Below, piece by piece: positions 19,903-36,700 of a stretch of 64,000 bases of DNA (position 1 is its first letter; every line of letters starts with the position of its first letter). The position numbers and the translations under genes were made by a program. Origin of the DNA: Rickettsiales bacterium (lineage in GTDB: Bacteria > Pseudomonadota > Alphaproteobacteria > Rickettsiales > SXRF01). The notes under the pieces are model-generated. The model saw nothing but the letters and a program-made list of their open reading frames with translations. It made no database searches and had not been told where the DNA came from. The stretch is from NCBI GenBank assembly GCA_964231325.1, contig CAXRIF010000003.1, forward strand, positions 866,927 through 930,926. Direction: 5' to 3'.

Positions 19903-19918
19903 ATATCTGAACAGACCG

Positions 19919-19948
19919 ATAGCCCACTACTGACGGGCTATTTTTTTT
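19919..19948 (+). terminator. Intrinsic terminator-like hairpin between protease and capsid genes
   Basis: ATAGCCC-ACTACTGAC-GGGCTAT followed by a T-run to 19948. Confidence 0.6.
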
Positions 19949-19974
19949 GTATTTTTAACCGTAATGAGGAAACT

Positions 19975-21174: not shown

Positions 21175-21179
21175 CTATT

Positions 21180-21227
21180 CTGAAGGTTGTGGGAGGCCCG
21201 CTAATAGTGGGGTTCCCACAATTTCAG
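21180..21227 (+). terminator. Long hairpin after the capsid gene (terminator or mRNA stabiliser)
   Basis: CTGAAGGTTGTGGGAGGCCCGCTA pairs imperfectly with TAGTGGGGTTCCCACAATTTCAG. Confidence 0.6.
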
Positions 21228-21285
21228 TGCGCAAATGCCACAGAGGGTTCTGAAAATTGCTATTTCTCACAGAGTTATTGCTCAT

Positions 21286-21300
21286 TTAATGCTTTTTTAA
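21286..21300. promoter_or_regulatory. CtrA-binding box TTAA-N7-TTAA
   Basis: TTAA-TGCTTTT-TTAA, followed by TTGACC, upstream of the gene at 21364. Confidence 0.55.
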
Positions 21301-21363
21301 GCTCCTTGACCTATGAATGGGCATGAGTTAAGCTATTGAATATTGGTTATAGAGGTTATTTTA

Positions 21364-21726
21364 GTGTCTAAACTTACCCGTACAGAACAAATCATAGCAG
21401 AAAAGACTGTATGTATTTTGCTGGTTCGTGGTGAAAACCCGGATGGTGGCACGATATACGCTTATGTTGCGATCAGAGCAGATAGGCTCGAAGCCTTTAT
21501 GGAGGCGCAGCAGCAAGGTACGTTCTATCCCGAGGATTACGGCATCATTGTTGAATCTGGTGAGGGTGAACCTTCTGACGAAGTAAAAGAAAAAATGACT
21601 AAAGAATATGGGTTTAACCATGATGCGATGCTTGATATAGGGAGCACTGAAAAAGCTCACGATATTAGCAGCAATATAACAACCTACATGACCTCTTCAG
21701 GTGGAGATGAACCTAAGGAAGAGTAG
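21364..21726 (+). CDS. Small hypothetical protein (family with 8244..8540 and 39688..40005)
   Basis: GAGG RBS before GTG 21364; LLVRG..YAYV..PEDYGIIVESGEGEPSDEVKEKMTKEYGF. Confidence 0.8.
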   Translation: MSKLTRTEQIIAEKTVCILLVRGENPDGGTIYAYVAIRADRLEAFMEAQQQGTFYPEDYGIIVESGEGEPSDEVKEKMTKEYGFNHDAMLDIGSTEKAHDISSNITTYMTSSGGDEPKEE

Positions 21727-21757
21727 TCTCTTAGCCGCTCTTAGCCTGTTTTCAATA

Positions 21758-21775
21758 TTCATATAATCGTCATAT
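21758..21775 (+). promoter_or_regulatory. Pho-box-like 11-bp direct repeat
   Basis: TTCATAT-AATC-GTCATAT upstream of 21837. Confidence 0.4.
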
Positions 21776-21836
21776 TTTTGCGTTTTTGATGTGCTATCTT
21801 ATAGTGGGGTAAACTACATTCCCCGAGAGAGGGTAT

Positions 21837-22595
21837 TTGGTGACATCAAGAAGCGGACAATACAGTGGTGGCAATGGTGGCAGATCTCGGTTTGCTATCA
21901 GGGTAGCCAATTTTGTAGACTCGAATAGCTTCCGCCAGTCGGCTGGTTTTACTGGTGCTGAGTTCGTTTCCATGGGGGTTTCCCTAGGGGTTGTTGGTGT
22001 TGCAGATCAGATTGCTCCACATGCATTGGAAAAAGCCAGTAAGGCGCTCTCGAAAGCAGTAATTGAGCCTTATTTGGATAGTATCGAGGGTACGCTAAAC
22101 CGTCTCTGTAAGCTTGAAGAATGTAAAGTTGATACCAGTAAATCACGTGAGGAAAGAGCAGAAAGGCTCGCCCATACGACGATTGTGTTTAGTGCTGCCT
22201 GGGTAATAAGTATGGCGGCAAAAATTGCAACACGTCGTGTGTTAACCCAAAAAATTCCCGCACATGATCCTGATGGTGCACATTACCGTCCGCATCCTGA
22301 TGACAAAAAAGTGTTTAAGATGTCTAAGCACGAGTGGAAACTGCTGGGTGCAGATGAGGGGGTGCATTATGGCTCATTGCTTCTGCTCAATACTAGTGCG
22401 GCAAAAGTTACAGATGAATTGATTAAGACTAGTACAAATATTTTGACGAAATGTGGGATGCCTGAGAAAAAGGCGCATGAACTCTCTTCCATGGCAATGA
22501 TCTGGGAACTTCCTAATTTGCTAGGGTGGGGAGCTGGAGTTGGTGTTATATCGCACTACAACGAGCATGACTGGGGCCAGAAGGCCAAATTTTAA
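21837..22595 (+). CDS. Hypothetical membrane-associated protein
   Basis: 252-aa ORF with several hydrophobic segments; GAGAGGG RBS. Confidence 0.7.
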   Translation: MVTSRSGQYSGGNGGRSRFAIRVANFVDSNSFRQSAGFTGAEFVSMGVSLGVVGVADQIAPHALEKASKALSKAVIEPYLDSIEGTLNRLCKLEECKVDTSKSREERAERLAHTTIVFSAAWVISMAAKIATRRVLTQKIPAHDPDGAHYRPHPDDKKVFKMSKHEWKLLGADEGVHYGSLLLLNTSAAKVTDELIKTSTNILTKCGMPEKKAHELSSMAMIWELPNLLGWGAGVGVISHYNEHDWGQKAKF

Positions 22596-22789
22596 TTTCT
22601 CTTATTGTTATGAATGTTTTGATGCTATCGACCCGATATGGGTGCGAGGATGGGTTTCGTGTATCCATTTTTAGAAAAAACAATCGCTATTTAATTGCAC
22701 ACACATTAGCTGCAAGCTTTGTCCGAAATGGTTGGGCAGTGCCAATATAATATACCCACTATGGGTACTTCTATTTTCTGGAGAATTTT

Positions 22790-23341
22790 ATGACTATATT
22801 GCGTAATCGCTCTTTGGTTCGTGTTGTCGCGCCTACCAATGAACCAATTACCCTCACTGAAGCAAAACTGTATCTACGTGTAGATCGCGCAGATGAAGAT
22901 GTGTTGATTAACGACTTGATTGTGGCGGCACGTATGCACGCTGAATACTGGCTCAAGCGATCTATTTTAACGCAGACATGGAAACTGGCGTATGATGACT
23001 ACCTTACGGAAGAAGTGCTTTTGCCTATGGGCCCGGTAAGTAGTATTGATAATGTTACCATCATAGACCGTGATGAAGACAGTGAAGTCCTCGATAGTGG
23101 CTTGTATTATTTAAATGCCGCTAAAGATGCAATTATTTTTGACGAGTGCTTATCAGCGCATAGAATAGAAATTACCTATGTTACGGGATATGGCGATGCC
23201 TCTATGGTTCCCAAATCTATCAAACAAGGTATGCTTTCGCATATAGCTTCAATGTATGATGGAAGGGGCGAGGGGACTGGGCATGTGCTTCCTGAGCAAA
23301 GCGTGTGTCTTTATATGCCATTTAGAGAGGTGTCGCTATGA
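22790..23341 (+). CDS. Head-tail connector / adaptor (GTA g6-like)
   Basis: EPITLTEAKLYLRVD, AARMHAE, TYVTGYG, VPKSIKQ. Confidence 0.92.
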   Translation: MTILRNRSLVRVVAPTNEPITLTEAKLYLRVDRADEDVLINDLIVAARMHAEYWLKRSILTQTWKLAYDDYLTEEVLLPMGPVSSIDNVTIIDRDEDSEVLDSGLYYLNAAKDAIIFDECLSAHRIEITYVTGYGDASMVPKSIKQGMLSHIASMYDGRGEGTGHVLPEQSVCLYMPFREVSL

Positions 23342-23679
23342 GACGCCGTAAGCACAATACTAGTTCAAAATTGCGGCAAAGGCTTACTCTACAGCAAGAA
23401 ATGCGTACCAGTGATGAGGCTGGTGGGTATACTCGTAGCTGGATTGACATTGCTGACTTATGGGCTGAAATTATTCCTATGCGGGGAAGTGAAAAGGTTT
23501 TTGGCAACCAAGTTCAGGCAGCAGTTACTCACAAAATTAAACTACGCTACCGAGAAGATGTTAAACCGGAGATGCGTTTACAATATGATAATCGGGTATT
23601 CAATATACGCCATGTGATTAACATATCTGAAATGAATGAGGTGCTGGAAGTGCTGGCTGAAGAAGGTGTAGCCGCTTAA
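23338..23679 (+). CDS. Head closure / stopper protein (GTA g7-like)
   Basis: LRQRLTLQ, DEAGGYTRSW, WAEI, THKIKLRYR. Confidence 0.92.
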   Translation: MRRRKHNTSSKLRQRLTLQQEMRTSDEAGGYTRSWIDIADLWAEIIPMRGSEKVFGNQVQAAVTHKIKLRYREDVKPEMRLQYDNRVFNIRHVINISEMNEVLEVLAEEGVAA

Positions 23680-24184: not shown

Positions 24185-24589
24185 ATGACGAATTTTAGCC
24201 ATCACGCCCTACACAAGGCGATCTATCAAAAGCTTACCGAAGACGCTACATTAATAAATGCTGTAAATGGTGTCTTCGATCTTGTGCCTCAAGGGCAGGA
24301 ATACCCATATATTACTATTGGGGAGTCCACGACTAGTGATTGGTCAACCAATACGACTACAGGAACTGAGCACTTGCTTACTATTCATGTCTGGAGTCGT
24401 GAAGGTGGAAAAAAAGAAACAGAGTTGTTAATGGAGAGAATTCATACTTTATTACATGATGGCAGCCTGACTATAGACGATCAGACATTAGTTTTAAGTC
24501 GGTTTCAATCCAGCTCTATTGAACTTGAAGGGGACGGGTGGACCAACCATGGGCGAATGCGTTTCAGAATGCTATTAGAAGCTGATTAG
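24185..24589 (+). CDS. Tail terminator DUF3168 (GTA g8-like)
   Basis: ALHKAIYQKL, VFDLVP, YPYITIGE, DWST, EHLLTIHVWSR. Confidence 0.92.
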   Translation: MTNFSHHALHKAIYQKLTEDATLINAVNGVFDLVPQGQEYPYITIGESTTSDWSTNTTTGTEHLLTIHVWSREGGKKETELLMERIHTLLHDGSLTIDDQTLVLSRFQSSSIELEGDGWTNHGRMRFRMLLEAD

Positions 24590-24591
24590 GT

Positions 24592-25317
24592 TTAGGAAGC
24601 AGGAAGATTCTTGGAAAGTGAAGAAATATAGTCTGCATATTGTGATTGCAGGGTTTCCATATTGCCATCGTCACAACTTATCATAGAATACATTTCTTGG
24701 TAGGAGCCCTGTGCGGCAGTTACAATATCGTATTGTAATCGACCTGGTGCGTTCATCGATGCCATTTCCTGGCTTAATGAAGAAATAATAATATGGTAAT
24801 CAGTTGGCATGGCTAACTCGCATTTTTTTAGAAAAAAATGGGTGACTAGAATTTCTTCATAGCGTTTTTTTAGTGCATCTATTTTAGGTTGAATGCCAGA
24901 GAGTGATGACTCTGGGTTATAGACATCATGCACATCTTGCGGTTCGTTTTCTTTAGAAGAAGTCGGAGGAGGCGCGGGAGAAGTGTTTTGAGTTTTTTCC
25001 ATTAATGTTAGCAACGATTCAGCTAAGGACTCTTTCTCTTTCTCGAGTTGTTGCTGCGATATTTGAAGAGTGCCAATAGTCTGATTTGCCTTATATAAGT
25101 TCCAATCGAGCAAGGCGAGAAACAAAGAATAAAAGAATATAATACAAGTTAATTGCAGAGGCTTTGATCGTACAAAATACCTGAGCCAGATTTTGGGGGG
25201 AGAATTAATTTTAAATCTCGGTTCATTTGTTTGAGATTTTCGTTCGTAGTAGTGCCAATAAAGAAAGGCGCCCAGAATTATCAGTAAGAAAAACCAAAGG
25301 ATAAAGCGTGTGAGCAT
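24592..25317 (-). CDS. Hypothetical membrane protein (two TM segments, coiled coil, C-terminal domain)
   Basis: 241-aa ORF translationally coupled to the upstream lectin-like gene. Confidence 0.7.
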   Translation of the reverse strand: MLTRFILWFFLLIILGAFLYWHYYERKSQTNEPRFKINSPPKIWLRYFVRSKPLQLTCIIFFYSLFLALLDWNLYKANQTIGTLQISQQQLEKEKESLAESLLTLMEKTQNTSPAPPPTSSKENEPQDVHDVYNPESSLSGIQPKIDALKKRYEEILVTHFFLKKCELAMPTDYHIIISSLSQEMASMNAPGRLQYDIVTAAQGSYQEMYSMISCDDGNMETLQSQYADYISSLSKNLPAS

Positions 25318-25739
25318 TATTGCTCCTCTTTCACCACGGATTCATTGCATTCGATTTGTAGTTTGCGGGAAATTGCGGATATTTCTCTAATGCGATCATA
25401 AGAGAAGCAGCGATACTCTACCTTGAGTAGTTTATCGGAGCAGCGGATAGCTGGGTCTTTTCCCAGTGTCTCAGTGTTAACTGGTATGGTACACTCTGAC
25501 TTTCCATCACAAAGGTTTGTTACGGCCTCTATCACGTTGTCGTCGCGTAGAGTTTTGGGAGGGGTTCTGTACCTTTGAATACAATTTAGCCCCCAGCTAG
25601 CATGTACTATCGAAATTTTATAAGGGTTATTATCAATAGTAACCACTTGTTTATCTGATGGGGTTTGTGAAGCCTGCCATATGAGCGATATGACAATTAC
25701 GATGGCGGCAATGACAAGCAGGTGAGCTTTAAATGACAT
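25317..25739 (-). CDS. Membrane-anchored protein with SUEL / rhamnose-galactose-binding lectin-like domain
   Basis: ISIVHASWG..C..VTNLCDGKSECTIPV..LGKDP..C..KLLKVEYRC matches the SUEL cysteine pattern. Confidence 0.7.
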   Translation of the reverse strand: MSFKAHLLVIAAIVIVISLIWQASQTPSDKQVVTIDNNPYKISIVHASWGLNCIQRYRTPPKTLRDDNVIEAVTNLCDGKSECTIPVNTETLGKDPAIRCSDKLLKVEYRCFSYDRIREISAISRKLQIECNESVVKEEQ

Positions 25740-25898
25740 ATTGCTTATTATCCAGGTTGTTAGTGGCTTATATGGCAGATTTATATTATGTTACTATGCT
25801 TGTAAAATATTAATATACTGATAAACAATAAGAAAATTTTTTGACGCTGGGTGAATGGTGTTGGGGTAATATCGTTATTTTACAGTGTATTATGCTGG

Positions 25899-25916
25899 CT
25901 GTCATAAAAGTGCCAT
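25899..25916 (+). promoter_or_regulatory. Pho-box-like site
   Basis: CTGTCATAAAAGTGCCAT matches CTGTCATAWAWCTGTCAY at 16 of 18 positions; extra TGTCATAAAA half-site at 25951. Confidence 0.5.
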
Positions 25917-26082
25917 TTTTCTTGAGAGTTTAATTCCTCCTTCTTCTAAATGTCATAAAAAACAAATGTAAGGCTTTGGGCTAACTTGTTATACTATTAC
26001 TGACTGGAAATAGGTGATTTTTTGCATTTGGTGTGCATTCGTTGCCTGATTTATAATACGATGAGGATAGTCAGTAGATAGA

Positions 26083-28077
26083 ATGTCGGGTTTTGGTGAA
26101 AATAGCTATGGTTCTCGAGGGGGCGGTAATACCGTTGTTTCTCCTGAAGACATGCGCCAAGAATATGAACGACTGCTTAGTGGAAAGGGGCTGACAAAAA
26201 GCCTTGAGATTACTACCGATAAAGACGGTAAGGCTAAGTGGATGTTCATGACGCTGCCTGCTGATGTGGCGGGGTTGTTGGAATATGGCTTGAATGTAAT
26301 GAAGCCATGGCTCAACCAAAAGGGTATTGATTTTCTTTATAAAAAGACTGAGAGTGCGTGGAAGTCTTATTCTAAGTCAGATGTTGCTGCGCACAAGGCA
26401 GGGTTAAACGCAGCCAAAATTTTTACGGCTGTTTTGGTGGGATCTGAACCCGTTAATGATCTGGTTCGTATACATTCCGACTACAGAAGCGATCGTAGAG
26501 ATCTTTTCAAAAGTATAGCGCCAGCACTGGATGCATCAGATGGGCGAAAGAAAAATAATGAAGTTATAAAGAAATCGCTAGATCGGGTTCATGGCCATGC
26601 AATGACGAACCTAAAGAAATTTGCTGCTGACCTGCCAACTTTGGCGCTCATCAGTACATATGCTGTATTGGATTATGGCGCTCTACGGGATAGAAAAACG
26701 GCCGAGTTTAAGCGACGTGAGTTGGCCTCAAAGCCTGAAAGCCAAACCTTCTCGGAGCTAGATAAATTGGCTACTCAGAGGCAAGAGTTCTTGGATACTC
26801 AAGAACATAAATTCTTTGAGGAATACCGTAATAAGAAAAACCCTCGTACTGGCAAAAACTATGAAGATGCAGAAATAGAGGGTAAATGGAATACTAAAAA
26901 AGAAGAATATATCGCCGGATTTAGGGCCAAGGATAAAATACGGAATTCTATTCCTCAGGAACACACACATAATAAATCATCTGATCGAGATACCACTATG
27001 TTGCCAGCAATGATTGGTGTGGGTGGTCTAAGTCAGATTCTAAAATCACGGCTTGATAATGCGGATCGTGAAAGACCGAAAATTGCCCTCGACCTTATCA
27101 TGGATTTGCAAAAGGATATGGATCAAGGACATCACGTTAATAACTTAAACAATAGAATTACTGAAATTTTTCAGCAAAATGAACGTGATCATGGAAGAGA
27201 TGTTATTGGCCCAAAACTTCTGCCACAACTTGAACCGGCGATTGGTGCTATTGCAGATGTTATCAACGACGGGCGCTTGAATCCACTGGCTTTGATAAAT
27301 CTGGTAGGTGAGGGCGGTATTATTGTTCGGCATGATGGTATGCGCAGTTTTGCAACAGCGCAACAAGCTGATGAGCTGATTAATAAGCAGCTAAAAATAT
27401 TAAGTTCTAGAGAGCTGATGAAGGCAGAAGAGTTCTTTGCAAACTTTGCTGACCCACAATTGGTAGAACAAACATTGAAAACTAATTTATCTTCGATGCA
27501 AGGCGTAGAAAAGGCAATGTTTGCCTCCCTTTTTCCAGAAGATATTCTGCTGAGGGCCGGTTTAAAAAAGCGTGAGATTGTGGATCTACACAAAGAAGCG
27601 CATGAACATATGTATGGTTTTGTCGCGGCTTCCGTTATTGCTCTTGCGAAAAAAGATCCTGAATATTTGATCAATGCTGGTATTACCGAAAATGACATTG
27701 ATAAACTCAAAGATTTCTCAAAACAGTTGGAGAGTGAAGGCCTGGATGCTGCAAAATCTGTAGTGGATGGTAAGGATAAAACCATCATCGATATTGTTCG
27801 CACGGCTGGCCTGAATGAGCAAATTAGTACAGGTAAAAACCCCTGGGTAGAAAGAGTGAAATCAACCAAAGATACGCATGAAAAGCTTGATAAAGTAGCC
27901 GCTGATAATTCCGCGGATGATAATGCTGAACCGCGTAGGCATGCTTCTGGTGATCGAGATAATGAAGAATATCGTCATCGTAAAAACACCAAAAATCGTG
28001 GTTCGAGCGCTAGGGAGCGGGTGACGTCTGAGCGTAATCGTGACACTGATTCATCCGATGGGCTGGCTATCAGCTAG
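26083..28077 (+). CDS. Large hypothetical protein (664 aa), helical and charged, effector-like
   Basis: Long ORF, no recognised family; disordered charged C-terminal tail. Confidence 0.8.
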   Translation: MSGFGENSYGSRGGGNTVVSPEDMRQEYERLLSGKGLTKSLEITTDKDGKAKWMFMTLPADVAGLLEYGLNVMKPWLNQKGIDFLYKKTESAWKSYSKSDVAAHKAGLNAAKIFTAVLVGSEPVNDLVRIHSDYRSDRRDLFKSIAPALDASDGRKKNNEVIKKSLDRVHGHAMTNLKKFAADLPTLALISTYAVLDYGALRDRKTAEFKRRELASKPESQTFSELDKLATQRQEFLDTQEHKFFEEYRNKKNPRTGKNYEDAEIEGKWNTKKEEYIAGFRAKDKIRNSIPQEHTHNKSSDRDTTMLPAMIGVGGLSQILKSRLDNADRERPKIALDLIMDLQKDMDQGHHVNNLNNRITEIFQQNERDHGRDVIGPKLLPQLEPAIGAIADVINDGRLNPLALINLVGEGGIIVRHDGMRSFATAQQADELINKQLKILSSRELMKAEEFFANFADPQLVEQTLKTNLSSMQGVEKAMFASLFPEDILLRAGLKKREIVDLHKEAHEHMYGFVAASVIALAKKDPEYLINAGITENDIDKLKDFSKQLESEGLDAAKSVVDGKDKTIIDIVRTAGLNEQISTGKNPWVERVKSTKDTHEKLDKVAADNSADDNAEPRRHASGDRDNEEYRHRKNTKNRGSSARERVTSERNRDTDSSDGLAIS

Positions 28078-28184
28078 ATCCCGTTGTGGTTGGGGGCGCT
28101 TAACCACCTAAAATTTATAGTGTATTCTGAGTTTTGATGCTTTTTTTGAGTTTTAGGCTCTCAAATAGCTAACCTCCTTGATCC

Positions 28185-28211
28185 GTCATAAATAATTCAT
28201 ACAAAAGCCAT
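28185..28211 (+). promoter_or_regulatory. Triple 11-bp-phased Pho-box-like repeat
   Basis: GTCAT (28185), TTCAT (28196), GCCAT (28207); TATAAT at 28234. Confidence 0.45.
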
Positions 28212-28259
28212 GGGATTTGCCTGCCTTGTCGCGTATAATCTAAGGTATGGAATTAGGTC

Positions 28260-30026
28260 TTGGATATTCAAATGGTTAATGGCACTCAGATAGCCAAAGG
28301 TGTTGATGCGGTGATAGATACGCGCCAGTCTTTGCGCGTGAGCTCTAGAGCGCGCCGTGCAGCGACGGGAAATGGCGCTGGTTCAGGAGCGCCGAATGCT
28401 GCTAAAACTGAAGCTTCGATGAGCCCAGATCAGGTGGCTGCAAGTAAACAGCTTCAAGTTGAAGATGCCATGTATGCGCCGGGTATGTCTGACAAGTTAC
28501 TTGGTGGTGCCGGTACTGCTGTTGGTATTGGTGGCATGGTACCATTTATTGGGCCTGCGGCGTTAAAAATTGCTGCGTTCCCTTTTAGCAAGATTGGTGA
28601 ATGGACTAAATCTGAAGGACTTCAGAGTTTGGGTGCGAAGATTAGCAAGCCGGCCAGAGCTTTTGAGGAGGCAACTTTTGCATCGGCGGGTGAGCGACTT
28701 GGAATTGGTGGTGCGGTGGGTAAGGCATCGCAAACGTTAGCAAATGGTGCTGGTGCTGTTGCCGAAACTGTTGATAAGCGAGTGCATGTAGGTAGAAAGC
28801 TGCAAGGGCGTGCGGTAGGCAGAGCACACAGACATCTACTCTCTGCACAGGACCATGCCACAAAATTAGAGCTTTCAGAGATTCCTGCTAAACACAGAAG
28901 TCATTTTAGAGCATTGCACGACCATGTTACTGGAGCAGCGCACACAGGAGATTTGGCGACAACGGAAACTGTACGAATTGCAGAACAGAATGCAAAAGGT
29001 GCAGTAGGTACGATTGAACGGACAGTTCCAAAAGCATCCCTTACAAATGCGTTGAGTGGTGCAGAAGAAGCGCTAGAAGATCTTGCCAAAAGTGGCGCTA
29101 GTAGGAAGACTGTTAAACAAGCGAGAAACTTTGTAAGTAGCGCTGGAAAAATGTCTGACAGCATGGCGCATGCAGGGGCAATAAACGAGGTTGGTCATTC
29201 TATTCGCTCCGTGCCCGGTAAACTAGGTCAAGCTAAGCTTGGACACGGCCTGATGAACGGCGCGTTTATCGCCGGCTCTGGCGTGTCGATGGTAAGTGAC
29301 GCAAAGACTTTCAAAGGGCGCCTAAAGATGCTCAAAGAAATGTATGCGGACATGACTGGTACTCCCATTGCGAAAGTGTCTACGGCTAAAGTAATGCTAG
29401 GTGCTGTGCCTGAGCCAGTGCGTGTGGCACGTAAACTGATCGTTAAGAAGCTGGCTATACGTGAAGCGACCGATACTATTGGTATGGGCGTAAATATTCG
29501 CCAAGCCGTGGATCGTCGTTTTAATGGTCCGCTAGCCATTGCAGCATTTATTTTACCAGAAATGATTGGTAGTAGCGCCGATAGCATGATGGGTGAAACT
29601 GTGCTACCTGCGTACACACAGTTCAAACACTTGCAGCTTGAGGCGAAGGCTGCCGGACAAGAGCTTCCAGCTGAAGCTTACGCAGGATTTGTTGGGGAAA
29701 TAAGCCCTGAATTGAAAAATCGTGGTGGTTCACAAAGCCGTTTTGCACAAGAGCTGGCTAAACAATATGCGGCGGAGAAAAAGACTGCTGCGGAAATAAT
29801 GAATGAGCTTGATAGTGGTGAGCTGCTATCTCGTGTACATAATCTAATCAAAGCGGCATCGGCTGAAAAAGCGGCGGCAGTTGCAGGAGCCGGAGCGGCT
29901 GATACGAAGCAAGTATCACATACACAGCGCCTTGCTGGCGCTAAAGAGGATATGCCAGTGCTGGGCGCGCACACAGAAAAAGTGGCTGCGGAAACACCGG
30001 CAGAAAATGGCGTGGTGAGGAGCTAG
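28260..30026 (+). CDS. Large Ala/Gly-rich hypothetical protein (588 aa) with hydrophobic helices
   Basis: Long ORF; GGAGTAVGIGGMVPFIGPAALKIAAFPF segment; stop abuts the next ATG. Confidence 0.8.
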   Translation: MDIQMVNGTQIAKGVDAVIDTRQSLRVSSRARRAATGNGAGSGAPNAAKTEASMSPDQVAASKQLQVEDAMYAPGMSDKLLGGAGTAVGIGGMVPFIGPAALKIAAFPFSKIGEWTKSEGLQSLGAKISKPARAFEEATFASAGERLGIGGAVGKASQTLANGAGAVAETVDKRVHVGRKLQGRAVGRAHRHLLSAQDHATKLELSEIPAKHRSHFRALHDHVTGAAHTGDLATTETVRIAEQNAKGAVGTIERTVPKASLTNALSGAEEALEDLAKSGASRKTVKQARNFVSSAGKMSDSMAHAGAINEVGHSIRSVPGKLGQAKLGHGLMNGAFIAGSGVSMVSDAKTFKGRLKMLKEMYADMTGTPIAKVSTAKVMLGAVPEPVRVARKLIVKKLAIREATDTIGMGVNIRQAVDRRFNGPLAIAAFILPEMIGSSADSMMGETVLPAYTQFKHLQLEAKAAGQELPAEAYAGFVGEISPELKNRGGSQSRFAQELAKQYAAEKKTAAEIMNELDSGELLSRVHNLIKAASAEKAAAVAGAGAADTKQVSHTQRLAGAKEDMPVLGAHTEKVAAETPAENGVVRS

Positions 30027-31022
30027 ATGGCGAAAGATGTAGAACATAAAGGAATGAAGACTTCTACAGCCTTAGACGCTGCAAGCCTTGGTGCTAATGG
30101 TGTAGAATTTATTGCCCCTAAAGTTATTGATGGGCTTTCGACTGGGGTTGCTCAGGGGGTGATGGGGCCTGCCGGTTTTGTTCTGCAAACGGGAGCCGGT
30201 GTTTATCGCGTATCTGAAGAAGAAGCGCGTTACGCAGAAACTCTTGGGATGAGCCCTGAACAATATGCACGTGCCTCACACACAAGTAATGCGCTTAAAG
30301 AGTTGCGCAATCGTGAAGATGAGAAGCGCGCTCATAGTGTAGGGAATGCGGCTACTTCTTCAACGGCATCATTAGCGGGAGCGGCTGTCGGTTCGGCACT
30401 CTTACCTGGTGTTGGTACTATTGTAGGGGCGATAGGTGGTGGTATTGGTGCTAGCGTGCTGTATGACATGGCATTAGTGGGTGCGGATAAAGATGTTGCT
30501 CTACTGGCTGTAGATATTGATGGGCAACAGAGAGCAATAAGCCGTGAAGAAAGCTTTGCGTTATTGACTTCTAACCTGCTTCCTGAGCAAAAATCATTAA
30601 TGCTTAAAGACTTGGAAAAGCAAACAGGGCATAACAACTTCATGGATGCACTGAATGATCAGGGTATTCCAACAGATATTATGGATAAGTACGAAAGTAC
30701 GCTTAGAACATATACACAAATTCAGCCCGATGGAACTGGGCAAGATGTTGCTACGCAATTGGCCTCACAAATTAATGCGGGGCAAATGAGCGCTAAAGAT
30801 TTGTTGTTACCTGATCAACTGATTCGTGATGCCAGCATGATTAATCAGCATGTGAATGCGCAACATATGCAGATTACGGGTGGACAGACGGTAACCAATA
30901 TAGAAAATCCACTACCTACAATGGATGGTGGCACGTTTGCACAGCATGAGGCGGGGCGTAGAAATGCCGCGCAAGGACATAGAAAGCCTGGGGTTAATAA
31001 AGCTGACCCCTCTATTGCATAA
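30027..31022 (+). CDS. Glycine-zipper hypothetical protein (331 aa) in the tape-measure position
   Basis: SLAGAAVGSALLPGVGTIVGAIGGGIGASVL; ends 32 nt before DUF2460. Confidence 0.8.
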   Translation: MAKDVEHKGMKTSTALDAASLGANGVEFIAPKVIDGLSTGVAQGVMGPAGFVLQTGAGVYRVSEEEARYAETLGMSPEQYARASHTSNALKELRNREDEKRAHSVGNAATSSTASLAGAAVGSALLPGVGTIVGAIGGGIGASVLYDMALVGADKDVALLAVDIDGQQRAISREESFALLTSNLLPEQKSLMLKDLEKQTGHNNFMDALNDQGIPTDIMDKYESTLRTYTQIQPDGTGQDVATQLASQINAGQMSAKDLLLPDQLIRDASMINQHVNAQHMQITGGQTVTNIENPLPTMDGGTFAQHEAGRRNAAQGHRKPGVNKADPSIA

Positions 31023-31054
31023 CATTTAATTTCTCACTTACATTTGGAGTTTGT

Positions 31055-31671: not shown

Positions 31672-32538
31672 ATGAAACAGATATCTACATCACTAGAGGC
31701 GCATATCTCCGGTGAGGTGACAACGCTTGCAACATGCTGGAAACTAAAGCGCAGAGATAATGTTATCATGGGTTTTACCAACCATGATAAAGATATTCTA
31801 TTCGATGGCGTGGTTTATAGGGCTGATACGGGATTCACACCTACCGTAGTAGAAAATACTTCAGCTGCCTCGGTTGATAACCTTGATATTGAGGGAATGA
31901 TCTCTGCCTCTAGTATTACAGAAGCGGATATATTAGCCGGGTTATATGATTTTGCAGAAATAGAAATTTTTCTGCTGAATTATAACGACACATCTCAGGG
32001 AGCATTAAAATTACGGCGTGGATGGTTAGGTGAAGTCTCATTACATAAGCAGCAATTTGTTGCTGAGGTTAGGGGGCTCACGCAGCGCTTGTCACAGACA
32101 ATAGGTGAGCTTTATTCACCATCCTGCCGTGCAACGCTGGGCGATCATCGTTGTAAGGTTGTTTTGTCAGGGCATACGGTAACAGGTAGTGTGACTAGTG
32201 TGGGGTCTACTCAGGAGTTCTTTGATACAGCGCGCACGGAAGAATCGGGGCTATTTACCTTCGGGCTAATTACTTTTACGAGCGGAGCCAATAATGGTCT
32301 TTCTATGGAAATTAAAGAATATTACTATAATGTAAGCTCTGGTGGCCGTATTATATTGGCGCTTCCTGTGCCCTATAGTATTGATAGTGGTGACACTTAT
32401 TCGCTAAGCAAGGGGTGTGATAAGACAATTACGACCTGTTTTGAGCGCTTTGACAATGTTGTTAACTTTCGTGGTGAACCAAATGTGCCGGGAATCGACA
32501 GAATGTTGGAAACAGCTGGCACACGTAGTAATTGGTGA
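31672..32538 (+). CDS. DUF2163 baseplate hub (GTA g13-like)
   Basis: TTLATCW, GFTNHD, CRATLGDHRC, GCDKTITTC, NFRGEP. Confidence 0.95.
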   Translation: MKQISTSLEAHISGEVTTLATCWKLKRRDNVIMGFTNHDKDILFDGVVYRADTGFTPTVVENTSAASVDNLDIEGMISASSITEADILAGLYDFAEIEIFLLNYNDTSQGALKLRRGWLGEVSLHKQQFVAEVRGLTQRLSQTIGELYSPSCRATLGDHRCKVVLSGHTVTGSVTSVGSTQEFFDTARTEESGLFTFGLITFTSGANNGLSMEIKEYYYNVSSGGRIILALPVPYSIDSGDTYSLSKGCDKTITTCFERFDNVVNFRGEPNVPGIDRMLETAGTRSNW

Positions 32539-32605
32539 GTTAATGATTTGGTAATGCTTTCATGGCTTAAATAGGAAAGTATTTTTCTATTTCTTTGTAG
32601 GCATT

Positions 32606-32794
32606 ATGGAGCTTTTCAAAAGTTTTTTTGTTGGTGCATTATCTGTTTTGCATGTGACTAGTAGGCCGATGCTTTATCGTTATCCTTATCGTACATCTGC
32701 GCAAGGCATACGTGCTGATTGGCAAAAAATTGCTGGAGATATAGAGAGTGTAATGGGAAAAATTAAGACAGAGGGCGATCATGGAGAAAAATAA
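32606..32794 (+). CDS. Small hypothetical protein, partner of the DUF2335-like gene
   Basis: IRADWQKIAGDI motif; overlaps the next start. Confidence 0.65.
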   Translation: MELFKSFFVGALSVLHVTSRPMLYRYPYRTSAQGIRADWQKIAGDIESVMGKIKTEGDHGEK

Positions 32795-33284
32795 GAGTAC
32801 TCCAGAACATAGCTATGCCCAGCGCCCATATAAAACGGGTGGCTATAGGAAGCCTGGTGGTAAAGAGCGAATTCAGAACCGCACTGTAGAAATTCTACCT
32901 CACCCTGAGGTGTTAGAGAGCTATAACTATGTTGTAGATGGCTCTGCCCAAATGATTCTGACTATGTTTGAAATAGAGCAAAAGCACCGTCATGAATGGG
33001 AATCTCAGGCAATAAAAATTCATAGTACGTCGACAGTATTGGGTCAGGTTCTTGGGTTTCTTATTGCTATTTCAGTATTTGTTTCTGCAACGGTGATTGG
33101 CATTTATGGCAATACTATGATTGCGGCAAGTATTTGGGTATTTGGTATGAGTATTGTCGTGATGGCTGGACTGGTTTGGGCTTATGCTAAAAGCATGGGG
33201 CAGCGTCCATTATTTGCGCGACCTACTATGCGAACTCATTTCCGCCCAGAAAAAGAGTCTAAGCAAAATACTCCTCAGGCTTAA
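32781..33284 (+). CDS. DUF2335-like membrane protein
   Basis: LPHPEVLESYN..GSAQMILTMFEIEQKHRH followed by two TM helices. Confidence 0.75.
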   Translation: MEKNKSTPEHSYAQRPYKTGGYRKPGGKERIQNRTVEILPHPEVLESYNYVVDGSAQMILTMFEIEQKHRHEWESQAIKIHSTSTVLGQVLGFLIAISVFVSATVIGIYGNTMIAASIWVFGMSIVVMAGLVWAYAKSMGQRPLFARPTMRTHFRPEKESKQNTPQA

Positions 33285-33306
33285 CTAGCTTATATTTGGA
33301 TTTTTT

Positions 33307-33759
33307 ATGAATGATGTGGACATCGTTATGGTGGCGCGCAGCTGGATTGGTACGCGTTTTCACCATCAGGGAAGACAAAAGAAAACAGAAAGACATAAGG
33401 GCGGAGTAGATTGTTTGGGGCTACTTGTTGGGGTGGCTGGCGAGCTTGGTTTGCATCTTAGTGATGGCACGCCATTAGCGAGCTTTGACTCTACAAATTA
33501 TTCACACTATCCGAACACTACAGAACTAATGCAGAAGTTAGCGCGTTTACTCGATCCTATACCTACAGAAGAGCTTTGCGCCGGTGATGTGTTGTTACTC
33601 CGTATTGATGAGAACCCTCAGCATCTTGCCATTGTTAGTAATTATCAGTCCGGTTTAGGGATGATACACGCTTATGCGCCTGCACGTGCTGTGGTTGAGC
33701 ACTCTTTGGATACATGGTGGATGAAACGCATTAAAGCTGCGTACCGCATTAAATTATAA
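33307..33759 (+). CDS. NlpC/P60 cell-wall peptidase (GTA g14-like)
   Basis: ARSWIGTRFHHQG, GVDCLGL, HLAI, MIHAY. Confidence 0.93.
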   Translation: MNDVDIVMVARSWIGTRFHHQGRQKKTERHKGGVDCLGLLVGVAGELGLHLSDGTPLASFDSTNYSHYPNTTELMQKLARLLDPIPTEELCAGDVLLLRIDENPQHLAIVSNYQSGLGMIHAYAPARAVVEHSLDTWWMKRIKAAYRIKL

Positions 33760-33774
33760 ATTAGCGAGAATATT

Positions 33775-36700
33775 ATGGCTTCGATTATACTCAGTACCGC
33801 GGGTACTGCCCTTGGTGCTGCGTCTGGAAATCCATTTATGGGGTTTCTTGGCTCTCGGTTGGGGAAAACTCTGGGCGGATTCATTGATGGTAGTATATTG
33901 GGGGGCGATGCTAAATTCCGTACACGTGGGCCGCGCCTAGCTGATCTTGGAGTGCAGACCTCTACTTATGGAAAAATGATTCCAATTTTGTATGGTACGG
34001 CACGTATTGGTGGGAATATTATTTGGTCTCGGCCTATTAAAGAGGTGGTGACTAGTACTACAAGTTCAGGCGGTGGTGCTGGTGGTAAAGGTGGCGGCGG
34101 TCGTGTAAGCCAGACTACTACAAGTTATAGCTACTTTGCTTCACTAGCTATTGGCATTTGTGAGGGTGAAGTAGATGAAGTGCTTCGTGTATGGGCGGAT
34201 GCTAAACAACTTGATCTGTCACTTTATACTGTACGTATTTATAAAGGTGATGAAGACCAGCTGCCAGATAGTCTTATTCAATCTATTGAGGGGGCCAGCT
34301 CAACACCTGCCTATAGGGGTATGGCGTATGTAGTATTAGAGGATTTCCCGCTTGCCGATTTTGGCAACCGCATACCAAATTTTACTTTCGAGGTGAGAAG
34401 GCGGCTTCTTTACCCTGATTATGAGGGTCAAGTGCTAGAGGAAATGATCAAGGGGATGGTGATGATTCCCGGAGGGGGGGAATTTGTTTACGATACCCAG
34501 ATCGAAAATAAGATTCCGGGTGCTCAGACTACCTCTGGTTGGACACAACAAGGCAATCAAGAGCCCATTAACATGCATAATGCTAATGGTGTAGCGAATG
34601 CGCTAGTGTCTTTAGACCAATTAGAAAGCACATGTCCAAATCTTGAGTGGGTATCTGTAGTTGTGTCCTGGTTCGGCACTGATATGGATGCCGGTAACTG
34701 TATCGTAGAGCCAGGAGTAGAGTTTAAAGTAGGTGCGATTACAGAACCTGATAGCTGGTCAGTGGCAGGGTATACGCGGGCAACGGCTCGCCAGATTACA
34801 TTGGTTGACGACGCTCCTCAATATGGCGGAACCCCAGATGATGACAGTATTGTACGCTATGTGCAGGAGCTTCGTAGTCGTGGATACAAGGTCATTTTTT
34901 ATCCGCTGATGTTTATGGATGTGGCCAATAAACCGTGGAGAGGTGATCTCACTGGGAGCGCAGCTGATGTGGCTGACTTTTTTACTAAAACAAATGGCTA
35001 CAACGATTTCGTTACACATTATGCAAATTTACTATCGGATAAGGTCGATGCTTTTTCTATCGGCTCAGAATATAAGGGGCTGACTAAAGTTACTGATGCA
35101 CCAGGGAACTATCCTGCTGTAAATGCGCTTGTCAGCCTTGCTGCAACCGTTAAAAGCATTGTGGAGAGCTCCGTTAAAGTAACGTATGCAGCTGATTGGT
35201 CTGAATATCACCATACTGATGGTGGCTGGTATAACATGGATCCATTATGGGCCTCCCCCAATATTGATTTTATTGGTATTGATGCATATTTCCCATTAAC
35301 AGACTCTCCGCAAGGCAGATATGATATTGATGAGGTTATTGCTGGATGGACGTCTGGTGAGGGGTATGACTGGTATTATAGTGACCCAGAAAGAACAATA
35401 CAAACCCCGTTAGACCCTGCTTACGCATGGAAAAATATTGAATGGTTCTGGAATAATACACATATTAATCCTGATGCTGTCCCAACAGCATGGGTGCCAC
35501 AATCAAAGAAGATATGGTTTACCGAATATGGTTTTCCCAGTGTGGATGGAGCCACCAATCAGCCCAATGTGTTTTTTGACCCAGATAGTAGTGTTAGTGG
35601 GTTTCCGTATTATTCAAAGGGGCGTGTAGATTTCCGTGCTCAACGTGTTGGGCTTATTGCCACTGAACATAAATGGAAAAACTCGTCATTCATTGAGCAG
35701 ATGTTTATATGGACGTGGGACGCACGTCCATTTCCTTATTGGCCCGATTTGCTTTCTATTTGGTCTGATGGAGCGTCGTGGAAAACGGGGCACTGGGTGC
35801 AAGGAAAGCTGGGGATATCAAGCTTAGCCGCTATAGTATCGGAGCTGCTTGAGAGGGGCGGGTTATCTTCAGAGGATTATGACGTTAGCAAGATAACAGA
35901 CCAAGTCGAGGGGTATGTGGTGCATGGTCAGCAATCTATTCGCGATTGTGTAGATATTCTAAAGCAAGGGTACTTTTTTGATTTGGTTGAATCAGACAAT
36001 GTTCTTAAGTTCATTCCTCGGGGTGGAGATAGTGTTCTGTCTGTTACGGAAGATAATCTGATTGCTATTGGTGATGATAATGGTGAGGCCTTTCAAATCA
36101 CGCGAGCACAGGAGATTGAGCTGCCTAAACGTGTGAATGTTGTTTATTTAAATCGTTTGGCAAATTATCAGAGTTCGACTCAATACTCACAGCGTGAAAT
36201 TAGTACTACGAGGGAAGTAACTACCATAGATCTTCCTATTGTTTTCCCGTCCCAAGTGGCTAAATCCATTGCAGATATCACGGTATTTGCCAGTTGGGTA
36301 GGGCGCACTGGATACCAATTCGACTTGCCAATGCAGTATGCTCAGATTGAGCCGACAGATGTTATTACTGTTACTGTATCTAACGTAAGTCACCGTATGC
36401 GCATTCTATCTACGCATTTGCACCCTACGGGAGCCATTCGAGTTAATGCCGTAGCAGATGATGTATCTACTTATGATTTTTATACTGCGCCGGGGGAAAC
36501 CTCTGAGGTGCCGCCTGGTGGTTTGTCTATACCTGCTACCCGTATTGAGTTTATTGATACTGCCGCATTTCCTGCCGATGAGGTGGATAAAGGCGTATTA
36601 AGGGTTGCGGGTATCGGTGTTGCTGAAGGCTGGAATGGTGCAGCGTTGTACCGGTCAGATGATAATGGAGAAAATTATACTCGTGTTGATGATATTACTA

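What the first reader, a model, noticed from the sequence alone, without database searches (positions are those of the whole stretch)
24590..31054. Tail tube, chaperone and tape-measure module missing; three large unknown proteins fill the slot (candidate tube-less or protein-delivering GTA derivative)
RcGTA-like clusters carry the tail tube (g9), chaperones (g10/10.1) and tape measure (g11) between the tail terminator (g8) and DUF2460 (g12). None is recognisable here, and the two intergenic gaps (about 340 and 180 nt) are too short to hide a tube gene. Neck, complete baseplate, fibre and lysis genes are intact. The slot holds co-oriented 664-, 588- and 331-aa proteins. The last two are translationally coupled and end 32 nt before DUF2460, and the 331-aa protein has a glycine zipper in the exact g11 position. 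Three hypotheses: (a) a head-plus-baseplate particle with novel ejection or pore proteins; (b) a GTA-derived device delivering protein cargo; (c) secreted effectors inserted here, with the tail genes located elsewhere.
Basis: partly seen in the sequence, partly recalled or inferred. Interest (0 to 1): 0.88.

Follow-up and report, generated by a model that had tools for sequence, protein, structure and literature searches.

The report
Unknown protein block inside GTA cluster
This bacterium's tamed-virus gene transfer agent is not tube-less, because its tail tube and chaperone genes sit elsewhere in the genome; its tail-ruler gene cannot be found, and the gap holds a clade-conserved set of unknown helical proteins that likely travel with the particle and would help it breach the recipient's envelope.

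Summary
Between g8 (24185-24589) and g12/DUF2460 (31055-31657) there is no g9, g10 or g11. The gap holds two reverse-strand genes and three forward ORFs of 664, 588 and 331 aa.

An intact tail tube (PF06199, E 9e-36) and a fused g10+g10.1 chaperone lie about 0.69 Mb away on the same contig. No tape measure was found anywhere: canonical g11 profile, a profile of the relatives' reduced g11, and three Pfam tape-measure families.

In relatives the three proteins belong to a four-gene block, 664-like, ~390 aa, 588-like and 331-like. The block sits between a shortened g11 (89-152 aa) and g12, so it is an insertion and not a replacement of g9-g11. The fourth member of this genome lies on another contig.

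The 588 family occurs in 41 of 201 genomes of the order, and 40 of those 41 have DUF2460. Tube, chaperones and g11 are lost or moved in a mosaic pattern.

All three proteins are all-helical with no known family. The 588 and 331 proteins carry conserved hydrophobic glycine-rich segments.

Function is inferred: particle-borne membrane-inserting proteins (about 0.4) or co-expressed cargo (about 0.25). The scan has reported tail-reduced GTAs before, on other DNA.

The parts
24185..24589 (+). g8, tail terminator / tail completion protein (134 aa)
   Evidence: PF11367, E 1.7e-28
24592..25317 (-). 241-aa protein with an N-terminal membrane helix and coiled coil; reverse strand; conserved at this place in relatives
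   Evidence: No Pfam family. tblastn hits in 16 of 19 family loci
25317..25739 (-). 140-aa membrane-anchored SUEL-type lectin protein; reverse strand; partner of the 241-aa gene
   Evidence: PF02140, E 2.6e-8. Hits in 12 of 19 family loci
25740..26082 (.). AT-rich non-coding gap, where 14 of 20 relatives carry a shortened g11 (tape measure). No ORF or remnant here
   Evidence: Stops in all three forward frames. A profile of the relatives' shortened g11, run against all six-frame ORFs of 20 aa or more in the genome, gives a best E of 0.44, a coiled-coil false hit
26083..28077 (+). p664: all-helical, 31% charged residues, disordered basic C-terminal tail, no hydrophobic segment. First gene of the conserved block
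   Evidence: No Pfam, NCBIfam or PHROG family. AF2 pLDDT 73. Family present in 21 of 22 family loci
28260..30026 (+). p588: all-helical, Ala/Gly-rich, with a conserved hydrophobic segment at about residues 80-107. Third gene of the block
   Evidence: AF2 pLDDT 66. Hydropathy. 19 of 19 family loci. 360 representatives at E <= 1e-3 among 1.84 billion proteins
30027..31022 (+). p331: conserved glycine-zipper hydrophobic hairpin (residues 114-151) followed by a helical domain. Start abuts the p588 stop. Last gene of the block
   Evidence: PHROG matches to tape-measure and tail-lysin families; those with listed positions cover this segment
31055..31657 (+). g12, distal tail protein (DUF2460)
   Evidence: PF09343, E 5.8e-79
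31672..37455 (+). Rest of the baseplate: g13 hub (31672-32538), DUF2335 membrane protein (32781-33284), g14 NlpC/P60 peptidase (33307-33759), g15 megatron (33775-37455)
   Evidence: Pfam hits
15265..23679 (+). Head and neck module: terminase, portal, (cytochrome b561 and YceI inserts), protease, capsid, two unknown ORFs, g6, g7
   Evidence: Pfam hits

Best explanation
The window holds an RcGTA-type gene transfer agent cluster whose tail tube and fused g10/g10.1 chaperone genes lie about 0.69 Mb away, whose tape-measure gene is not detectable anywhere in the genome, and whose g8-g12 gap carries three of four genes of a clade-conserved block of all-helical proteins that are likely particle-borne, membrane-inserting 'ejection' proteins.

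Shown here:
- In relatives the block (664-like, ~390 aa, 588-like, 331-like) is inserted between a shortened g11 and g12 of the tail operon.
- It forms two translationally coupled pairs.
- It co-occurs with the DUF2460 baseplate gene.
- It persists while tube, chaperones and g11 are lost or moved in different lineages.
- The ~390-aa member of this genome sits on contig C2.

Inferred: the proteins would be made with the tail and baseplate, loaded into the particle, and released on attachment. The hydrophobic glycine/alanine-rich hairpins of p588 and p331 would then insert into the recipient's envelope. This would take over or extend what the glycine-rich middle of a full tape measure does, as the tail shortens.
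For: Position and linkage
- All 19 full family loci carry the 664 and 588 families in the slot upstream of g12. 18 of 19 also carry the 331 family and g12; the 19th ends at a contig end.
- In G004 the order g8, tube, g10 (PF11836, 2.7e-12), g10.1 (PF09550, 3.8e-16), 110-aa g11, block, g12 is unbroken on one strand.

The small ORF upstream of the block is a real g11
- The G016 copy (152 aa) hits my g11 profile at E 4.6e-17.
- Its family profile hits the last ~35 residues of 7 of 7 full-length 638-853-aa tape measures upstream of DUF2460 elsewhere (E 5e-8 to 6e-5).

Coupling
- Gaps or overlaps of 0-8 nt between 664/390 and between 588/331 in relatives.
- 0 nt between p588 and p331 here, and 32 nt to g12.

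Co-occurrence
- The 588 profile is in 41 of 201 genomes of the order. 40 of those 41 have DUF2460, against 104 of the 160 without it. Kin are not independent.
- In 16 of these genomes the hit lies 0.1-2.5 kb from g12 on the same strand.

Sequence features
- No N-terminal signal-like segment.
- Conserved internal hydrophobic segments in p588 (~80-107) and p331 (114-151) across the family.
- In the 331 family, 6 of 19 members match tape-measure PHROG 167, 6 match tail-lysin PHROG 1047, 7 match phrog_10341 (labelled endolysin) and 2 match tape-measure PHROG 794 (best 5.9e-7). One member matches phrog_6922 over 140 residues at E 4.3e-11.
- The block evolves fastest in the cluster: median identity 27-31%, against 64-80% for capsid, g12, g13 and g15.

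Tail erosion alongside the block (family relatives)
- Tube in 15 of 24.
- g10.1 in 4 of 24.
- Shortened g11 in 14 of 20 loci.
Against: - No sequence or fold link to any known ejection protein. For the 664 and 588 families, no PHROG family is matched by more than 1 of 20 members.
- Foldseek against PDB and BFVD finds nothing at E <= 0.001. VIA-align best Z is 9.6 and 8.1, within the range of generic helical matches.
- ComEC (PF03772) is present in 41 of 41 genomes, so the usual periplasm-plus-competence entry route is available and no extra inner-membrane conduit is required.
- G036 (one contig, 100% complete) keeps open 617-, 624- and 295-aa copies although g12-g15 are deleted and no DUF2460 is left.
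- G209 keeps a 648-aa open frame beside a broken capsid gene and has no DUF2460.
- In several genomes of family f9 the genes are unlinked from GTA genes. Here the ~390-aa member moved to another contig.
- In two other families the same gap holds an ankyrin-repeat or a HEAT-repeat protein, so the site also collects genes that look non-structural.
- A small RcGTA-type head leaves little room for about 2000 residues of extra protein (my inference from PMC7296036, passages).
Confidence: 0.4

Rival explanations
1. The block is accessory cargo (effector-like or pore-forming proteins) that settled in a permissive site of the tail operon. It would be co-expressed with the GTA and released by GTA-linked lysis or another route, without being part of the particle.
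For: - The same tube-to-g12 gap holds a 590-aa ankyrin-repeat protein in G037 (PF12796, 1e-34) and a HEAT-repeat protein in G029.
- Block ORFs stay open where the baseplate or capsid is gone (G036, G209).
- Genes are unlinked in several f9 genomes, and the 390-aa member has moved here.
- Weak, non-significant leads point to pore formers: ESM Atlas score 0.80 to RTX N-terminal clusters for p588, and AhlB/SmhB at E 0.07-0.15 for the 331 profile.
Against: - 40 of 41 genomes with the 588 family also have DUF2460.
- The position immediately upstream of g12 is kept in at least five families of the order (f1, f11, f13, f140, f154).
- No eukaryote-like domain, signal peptide or enzymatic domain.
- No copy in 50,697 phage records by tblastn.
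Confidence: 0.25
2. The proteins are non-virion GTA accessory factors (assembly chaperones, scaffolds for the baseplate, or release/maturation factors) needed in the producer cell only.
For: - Operon position and coupling.
- Co-occurrence with DUF2460.
- The 664 and 390 families share a domain (hhalign probability 81%, E 1.2e-5), as paralogous assembly partners might.
Against: - Conserved membrane-type hairpins in p588 and p331 and very fast divergence fit contact with the outside better than housekeeping assembly.
- ORFs persist without a baseplate in G036.
Confidence: 0.15
3. The block is a long phage tape measure that was captured and split into three or four ORFs, so p331 is the true g11 equivalent.
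For: - Summed length of about 1980 aa, and position just upstream of the distal tail protein.
- The p331 glycine zipper matches tape-measure PHROGs.
- No other tape measure exists in this genome although a chaperone is kept.
Against: - Relatives keep a separate g11 upstream of the block.
- hhalign of all four families against g11 gives probability of 1.1% or less.
- The 588 profile scores 10-12 bits on long tape measures, against up to 9 bits on unrelated proteins of this genome and 5 bits on reversed sequences.
- None of the four profiles reaches E <= 0.01 for a whole protein on full-length tape measures except that borderline 588 signal.
- The tail is being shortened or lost in this clade, not lengthened.
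Confidence: 0.08
4. One reading: this genome builds a tube-less head-plus-baseplate particle.
For: - The tube was not found in 9 of 24 family relatives, including G012 and G014 (100% complete) and G007 (97%).
- No tape measure in this genome.
Against: - An intact 136-aa tube gene covers the whole of PF06199 (E 8.9e-36).
- It is 79-82% identical to the relocated tube genes of two other species.
- It stands beside an intact chaperone fusion.
Confidence: 0.04

Closest known systems
RcGTA of Rhodobacter capsulatus (g1-g15 head-tail cluster; Bardy et al. 2020, PMC7296036, passages read)
   Same: Terminase, portal, S78 protease, HK97-type capsid, g6, g7, g8, g12 (DUF2460), g13, g14 peptidase and g15 megatron are in the same order. 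The tube family is PF06199 and the chaperone families are g10/g10.1.
   Different: g9 and g10/g10.1 are at a second locus, and the chaperone is a single fused ORF. No g11 was found. A four-gene block of unknown helical proteins sits where g11 meets g12. Several reverse-strand and metabolic genes are inserted in the cluster.
Reduced GTA clusters of Rickettsiales and Holosporaceae endosymbionts (George et al. 2022, PMC9254644, abstract and passages read)
   Same: Small-genome Alphaproteobacteria keep head genes under purifying selection while tail components are missing, divergent or scattered. That paper also notes unknown genes that might be tail genes.
   Different: Here the baseplate (g12-g15) is complete and well conserved (59-74% identity). 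The losses concern only tube, chaperones and g11. A defined conserved block of new proteins occupies the g11/g12 junction. No such block appears in the passages I read.
Ejection (internal virion) proteins of short-tailed phages, such as T7 gp14/gp15/gp16 and P22 gp7/gp20/gp16 (recalled from the literature; only listings of related papers seen)
   Same: Three to four consecutive structural-module genes encode large helical proteins without enzymatic domains, some with membrane-inserting segments. In P22 they follow the needle gene, and Bardy et al. liken the RcGTA g11 to that needle.
   Different: No detectable homology. The best weak rows are T7 core 9jyy_G (E 0.33, TM 0.09) and an RSB3 internal virion protein (E 0.02, TM 0.10). 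Presence in particles is untested.
Glycine-rich hydrophobic segments of long phage tape measures and tail-associated lysins (PHROGs 167, 794, 23574, 973, 1047)
   Same: In the rows with listed positions, the p331 family matches these profiles at its glycine-zipper hairpin. 6 of 19 members match PHROG 167 and 6 match PHROG 1047; the best E for PHROG 794 is 5.9e-7.
   Different: The match covers 45-90 residues of low-complexity hydrophobic sequence. The C-terminal signature shared by DUF2460-linked tape measures is absent from p331.

Membership tests
RcGTA-like gene transfer agent cluster | Head module: large terminase, portal, prohead protease, HK97-type capsid | tested here: met
   PF17289, PF04860, PF04586, PF05065
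RcGTA-like gene transfer agent cluster | Neck: g6 adaptor, g7 head completion, g8 tail terminator | tested here: met
   PF05135, PF05521, PF11367
RcGTA-like gene transfer agent cluster | g9 tail tube (PF06199) | tested here: met
   Not in the window. Found at G000:C3:201772-202170, E 8.9e-36, full profile coverage
RcGTA-like gene transfer agent cluster | g10 and g10.1 tail assembly chaperones (PF11836, PF09550) | tested here: met
   One fused 183-aa ORF beside the tube. Pfam gives 21.9 bits each, under the cut-offs. The whole-genome search gives 24.7 bits 'with its neighbours' for PF09550. BLASTP E 4.7e-9 and 2.3e-10 to relatives' g10 and g10.1
RcGTA-like gene transfer agent cluster | g11 tape measure with the conserved C-terminal signature | tested here: not met
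   g11 profile from 11 Alphaproteobacteria: best E 0.035. Profile of the shortened g11: best E 0.44. PF10145 and PF06791: no hit. PF09718: 17.7 bits, under the cut-off, in an HTH-bearing protein
RcGTA-like gene transfer agent cluster | Baseplate: g12 DUF2460, g13 hub, g14 peptidase, g15 megatron | tested here: met
   PF09343, PF09931+PF09356, PF00877, PF13547+PF13550+PF23666
RcGTA-like gene transfer agent cluster | Packages and transfers random host DNA | not testable with these tools
   Needs particles and transfer assays
Tape measure protein (for p331, p588, p664) | Homology to the tape measures that accompany DUF2460 baseplates | tested here: not met
   hhalign probability of 1.1% or less for all four families against g11. 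Only a noise-level 588 signal on full-length tape measures
Tape measure protein (for p331, p588, p664) | Glycine-rich hydrophobic segment | tested here: met
   p331 residues 114-151 and p588 residues ~80-107, conserved in the family. PHROG matches
Tape measure protein (for p331, p588, p664) | The only long gene between chaperones and distal tail protein | tested here: not met
   Relatives have a separate g11 upstream of the block
Podovirus ejection / internal virion proteins | Sequence or fold similarity to T7 gp14-16, P22 gp7/20/16 or related families | tested here: inconclusive
   No PHROG family shared by more than 1 of 20 members. Foldseek E 0.02-0.33 only. Only the 664 model went to the viral library
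Podovirus ejection / internal virion proteins | Present in the particle and released on attachment | not testable with these tools
   Needs proteomics or cryo-EM of particles
Alpha-helical pore-forming toxins (ClyA/AhlB type, RTX N-terminal domain) | Significant profile or fold match | tested here: inconclusive
   AhlB/SmhB E 0.07-0.15. ESM Atlas 0.80, below the 0.9 mark. VIA-align rows are generic helical bundles

The most novel reading that the evidence does not exclude
A whole clade of small-genome Alphaproteobacteria is turning a long-tailed (siphovirus-type) gene transfer agent into a stub-tailed one. It first acquired its own four-protein 'ejectosome' between tape measure and baseplate. 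It then shrank the tape measure and is now shedding tube and chaperones lineage by lineage. This would be a convergent re-invention of the podovirus way of crossing the cell envelope inside a domesticated element.
Probability: 0.2. Interest if true: 0.8.

Novelty: new variant of a known kind. Interest (0 to 1): 0.5.

Why it matters
GTAs are the best-studied case of a virus tamed by its host, and how their tails evolve after domestication is an open question. Loss of tail parts in symbiont GTAs has been reported without a view of what replaces them.

This clade offers a defined, conserved set of four unknown proteins at the tape-measure/baseplate junction. It also offers a natural series of genomes with a full, moved, shortened or missing tube, chaperone and ruler.

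That series makes two questions directly testable:
- Can a siphovirus-type baseplate work on a stub tail?
- What is then needed to get DNA, or protein, across the recipient's envelope?

If the block turns out to be cargo, it would be a case of host-interaction genes riding a GTA operon.

Tried and rejected
Homology searches on the three proteins
- Pfam, NCBIfam and PHROGs found nothing for p664 and p588.
- PDB sequence profiles found nothing below E 0.05.
- The word-indexed protein search returned only unnamed 'hypothetical' relatives.
- 0 of 40 scanned representatives of the 588 family carry any Pfam domain.
- tblastn of p588, p664 and the G016 331-like protein against 50,697 phage records gave no match.
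- IMG/VR gave one contig, with the same layout as relative G003.

Structure and atlas searches
- Foldseek on PDB for both models, and on BFVD for the 664 model, gave nothing at E <= 0.001.
- VIA-align wide returned only generic helical rows. The C-terminal domain of p664 was barely tested.
- ESM Atlas gave a score of 0.80 for p588 and no usable hit for p664 residues 325-615.

Other tests
- The idea that p588 resembles long tape measures was rejected as noise.
- Complex prediction of p588 with p331 returned 'no answer' (score 0.00, controls not run). This is no evidence either way.
- The CtrA-type box TTAA-N7-TTAA (motif recalled) has 5 sites in the window, none near the block, and 11 of 100 shuffles reach 5.
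- Promoter- and terminator-like sites are not above shuffles.
- I tested whether the clade lacks ComEC and so needs its own inner-membrane conduit. ComEC is present in 41 of 41 genomes.
- No paralogues of the three proteins exist in the genome.
- The weak PF09718 hit lies in a 358-aa HTH-bearing protein and is not a tape measure.

Not done
- A scan of genome contigs with alignment A2 was not possible because the alignment has no conserved stretch, and I did not repeat it. Organism names were therefore not obtained.

Full report
**What is in the window.** ORF listing and Pfam scans show an RcGTA-type head-tail cluster on the + strand.
- Head: terminase (15265-16665), portal (16788-18062), two inserted genes (cytochrome b561 and YceI), protease (19303-19902), capsid (19975-21174) and two unknown ORFs.
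- Neck: g6 (22790-23341), g7 (23338-23679), a reverse-strand 154-aa ORF and g8 (24185-24589, PF11367).
- After the region in question: g12/DUF2460 (31055-31657), g13, a DUF2335 membrane protein, g14, g15 (1226 aa), a reverse bPH/SHOCT gene, DUF2793 and a lysozyme.
- Between g8 and g12: two reverse-strand genes (241 aa; 140 aa with a SUEL lectin domain), a 343-nt gap, then forward ORFs of 664, 588 and 331 aa.
No tube, chaperone or tape-measure family is found in this stretch.

**The 'missing' tail genes.**
- A whole-genome search with PF06199 finds one intact tube gene at G000:C3:201772-202170 (E 8.9e-36, full profile, no stops). This is about 0.69 Mb before g8 on the same contig.
- Beside it, on the opposite strand, is a 183-aa ORF. 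Its N-terminal part matches PF11836 (g10) and its C-terminal part PF09550/TIGR02216 (g10.1), just under the cut-offs.
- BLASTP to a relative's g10 (E 4.7e-9) and another relative's g10.1 (E 2.3e-10) confirms a g10-g10.1 fusion.
- The neighbours are housekeeping genes (Mla, MotAB, MTHFR), so this is a two-gene island and not a prophage.

**No tape measure was found.** For g11 I built a profile from the ORFs directly upstream of DUF2460 in 11 Alphaproteobacteria.
- Against all six-frame ORFs of the genome its best E is 0.035.
- Three generic tape-measure Pfam families give nothing above cut-off.
- The one weak PF09718 row lies in an HTH-bearing 358-aa protein.

**What the three proteins are in relatives.**
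- Single-protein searches find the 588 protein in 23 of 24 relatives of the same family. The 24th has a contig end inside the locus.
- I fetched 19 full and 3 partial loci and mapped all cluster genes.
- The layout is constant: g8, often g9, sometimes g10/g10.1, usually the reverse 241/140-aa pair, a small ORF, a 664-like protein (562-992 aa), a ~390-aa protein (15 of 19 loci), a 588-like protein (19 of 19), a 331-like protein (18 of 19, the other at a contig end), then g12.

**The small ORF is a shortened g11.**
- The 152-aa copy of G016 hits my g11 profile at E 4.6e-17 in its N- and C-terminal parts.
- The others (89-129 aa) keep the C-terminal signature.
- A profile of them hits the last ~35 residues of all 7 full-length 638-853-aa tape measures that I fetched from upstream of DUF2460 in other Alphaproteobacteria (E 5e-8 to 6e-5).
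- In G004 everything is collinear on one strand: g8, g9, g10 (PF11836, 2.7e-12), g10.1 (PF09550, 3.8e-16), 110-aa g11, 672, 411, 514 and 309 aa, g12.
- The large proteins are therefore an insertion between g11 and g12, not substitutes for g9-g11.

**The state of this genome.**
- The shortened g11 is not detectable. The 343-nt gap upstream of p664 has stops in all frames. The profile's best genome-wide hit (E 0.44) is coiled-coil noise.
- The ~390-aa family, which seemed absent, has a 400-aa member on contig C2 (300722-301924; profile E 1.1e-59; 48% identical to the in-cluster copy of G021). It lies 3.8 kb from a GTA-type holin (PF11351, 1.9e-22).
- The GTA genes of this genome are thus spread over the main cluster, the tube/chaperone island, the 390-aa gene and the holin.
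I did not check it.

**Erosion of the tail module in the clade.**
- Among 24 relatives of the family, PF06199 is found in 15. It is not found in G002, G006, G007, G008, G010, G012, G014, G020 and G024, whose completeness ranges from 71 to 100%.
- PF09550 is found in 4 of 24.
- The shortened g11 is found in 14 of 20 loci that cover its place.
- The relocated tubes of G011 and G023 are 79-82% identical to this genome's tube.
- Head and baseplate genes are well conserved (median identity: capsid 80%, g12 70%, g13 69%, g15 64%). The block is the fastest-evolving part (27-31%).

**Elsewhere in the same order.**
- G026 has a canonical tube-g10-g11 island (193-aa g11, E 1e-31).
- G039 has a 1064-aa ORF after the tube.
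- G037 has 6 kb with a 590-aa ankyrin-repeat protein between tube and g12, and G029 has a HEAT-repeat protein there.
- G034 has 664-like and 588-like genes directly upstream of g12.
- G036 keeps tube and the three proteins but has a clean deletion of g12 to g15 and no DUF2460 anywhere.
- G032 has the 588/331 pair, the 664-like gene, the capsid gene and g12 at separate places.
- In a sample of 200 genomes of the order plus this one, the 588 profile is in 41 and DUF2460 in 144. 40 of the 41 have DUF2460. The exception, G209, has a broken capsid gene. That search missed G034 and G036, so its sensitivity is limited.

**What the proteins look like.**
- None has a Pfam, NCBIfam or (for p664 and p588) PHROG family. 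None has a paralogue in the genome.
- The 588 family has 360 representatives at E <= 1e-3 among 1.84 billion proteins. The 150 listed are 219-768 aa long, and none of the 40 scanned has a Pfam domain.
- AlphaFold2 with the family alignments gives all-helical models: p588 pLDDT 66 and pTM 0.47; p664 pLDDT 73 and pTM 0.54.
- Neither Foldseek (PDB for both; BFVD for p664) nor VIA-align gives a match above what generic helical proteins give.
- The top BFVD rows are internal virion proteins, tail lysins and tape measures, but at E 0.02-0.5 and TM about 0.1. I do not count that as evidence.
- p664 is 31% charged, has no hydrophobic segment, and shares a domain with the 390 family (hhalign probability 81%).
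- p588 and p331 have conserved internal hydrophobic Gly/Ala-rich segments and no N-terminal signal-like segment.
- The 331 family repeatedly matches large phage virion families. The matches with listed positions cover this hydrophobic segment: tape-measure PHROG 167 in 6 of 19 members, tail-lysin PHROG 1047 in 6, tape-measure PHROG 794 in 2 (best 5.9e-7). One member matches phrog_6922 (function unknown) over 140 residues at E 4.3e-11.
- None of the four families resembles g11. The weak 588 signal on long tape measures is at noise level.

**How it most likely works.**
- Shown: the block is part of the tail/baseplate operon, is tightly coupled internally, is tied to DUF2460-bearing genomes, and stays while tube, chaperones and ruler decay.
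- Inferred: the proteins are loaded into the particle and released on attachment. p588 and p331 would insert into the recipient's envelope, a role that the glycine-rich middle of full tape measures is thought to play and that the shortened g11 has lost.
- The layout recalls short-tailed phages, where ejection-protein genes follow the needle gene. That gene order is recalled, not read here. Bardy et al. (PMC7296036, passages) liken RcGTA g11 to the P22 needle.
- I put this at about 0.4.

**Evidence against this reading.**
- There is no homology to known ejection proteins.
- ComEC is universal in the order (41 of 41).
- ORFs stay open in G036 and G209 without a baseplate.
- Genes are unlinked in family f9.
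- Ankyrin and HEAT proteins occupy the same gap in other families.

These points feed the main rival, co-expressed cargo or effector proteins (0.25). Further rivals are producer-side assembly factors (0.15), a split tape measure (0.08) and a tube-less particle in this genome (0.04).

**What is known.**
- Tail-component loss in GTAs of Rickettsiales and Holosporaceae is published (George et al. 2022, PMC9254644, abstract and passages). That paper speculates that unknown genes could be divergent tail genes.
- Three full-text searches returned no listed title or abstract about a conserved protein block between g11 and g12, about a shortened g11, or about ejection-type proteins in a GTA. Supplements were not opened.
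- Earlier notes of this scan describe tube-less or miniaturised GTAs in other genomes. I did not test those. None overlaps this DNA.
- I therefore file this as a new variant of a known kind.

**Verdict.** The real point of interest is the conserved four-gene insertion and the mosaic decay of the tail module around it. Its function remains inferred.

Noticed in passing
window 18117-19245: A cytochrome b561 gene (PF01292) and a YceI gene (PF04264) are inserted between the portal and protease genes of the GTA cluster.
   Followed up: no
window 23676-24140 (-): A reverse-strand 154-aa ORF of no known family lies between g7 and g8. It is conserved at the same place in 11 of 19 family loci, at 45-61% identity.
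   Followed up: partly
window 24592-25739 (-): A reverse-strand pair (241-aa membrane/coiled-coil protein and 140-aa SUEL-lectin membrane protein) is conserved inside the tail operon of the family and of G036. In G016 it sits between g10.1 and g11, and it is absent from G004.
   Followed up: partly
window 32781-33284: A DUF2335 membrane protein lies between g13 and g14. It is among the best-conserved genes of the cluster, with median identity 78% in 15 loci.
   Followed up: no
L002:7108-9218 (= G000:C3:199107-201217, - strand): Downstream of the fused chaperone are two similar small membrane proteins (183 and 152 aa) and a 331-aa glycine-rich protein. None has a known family or hits in relatives' GTA loci. 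The 331-aa protein is not related to p331.
   Followed up: partly
L002:9088-9639 (-): g10 and g10.1 are two overlapping ORFs in G004 and G016 but a single in-frame fusion in this genome, like a permanent version of a chaperone frameshift product.
   Followed up: partly
L070:4479-4898 (= G000:C2:296478-296897): A GTA-type 3TM holin (PF11351, E 1.9e-22) lies 3.8 kb upstream of the relocated 390-aa block gene. PagL, a pilin-like gene and the cell-cycle regulator TrcR lie between them.
   Followed up: no
L070:9943-11068: Two similar unknown ORFs (177 and 222 aa) directly follow the relocated 390-aa gene. They have no hits in relatives' GTA loci.
   Followed up: partly
L067:4183-10185 (G037) and L066:1984-2952 (G029): In two other families of the order the tube-to-g12 gap holds a 590-aa ankyrin-repeat protein (with a 408-aa unknown protein and small paralogous ORFs) or a 322-aa HEAT-repeat protein.
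   Followed up: partly
L015 and L016 (G001, G003, same genus as the window): No g7 or g8 was found in the cluster. A diverged tube gene (30-38% identity, PF06199 E 3.5e-10 and 4.7e-18) stands where g8 should be.
   Followed up: no
L062:15058-15866 (G036): There is a clean deletion of the baseplate. The first 20 codons of g12 are followed about 0.5 kb downstream by the last ~77 codons of g15, and no DUF2460 is left in this complete one-contig genome.
   Followed up: yes
G012, G014, G016, G032, G268 and other relatives: Two to six DUF2460 genes per genome suggest extra prophages or further GTA-like elements in these small genomes.
   Followed up: no
G000:C3:347863-348936 (-): A 358-aa protein with an HTH / sigma region-4-like stretch gave the weak PF09718 row. 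By eye it looks like a regulator, and I wondered about a GafA-like GTA activator. This was not tested.
   Followed up: no
window 21343-21726: The 127-aa ORF after the capsid gene has three distant paralogue hits elsewhere on the contig (C3:974200, 303326, 906811; 31-44% identity).
   Followed up: no
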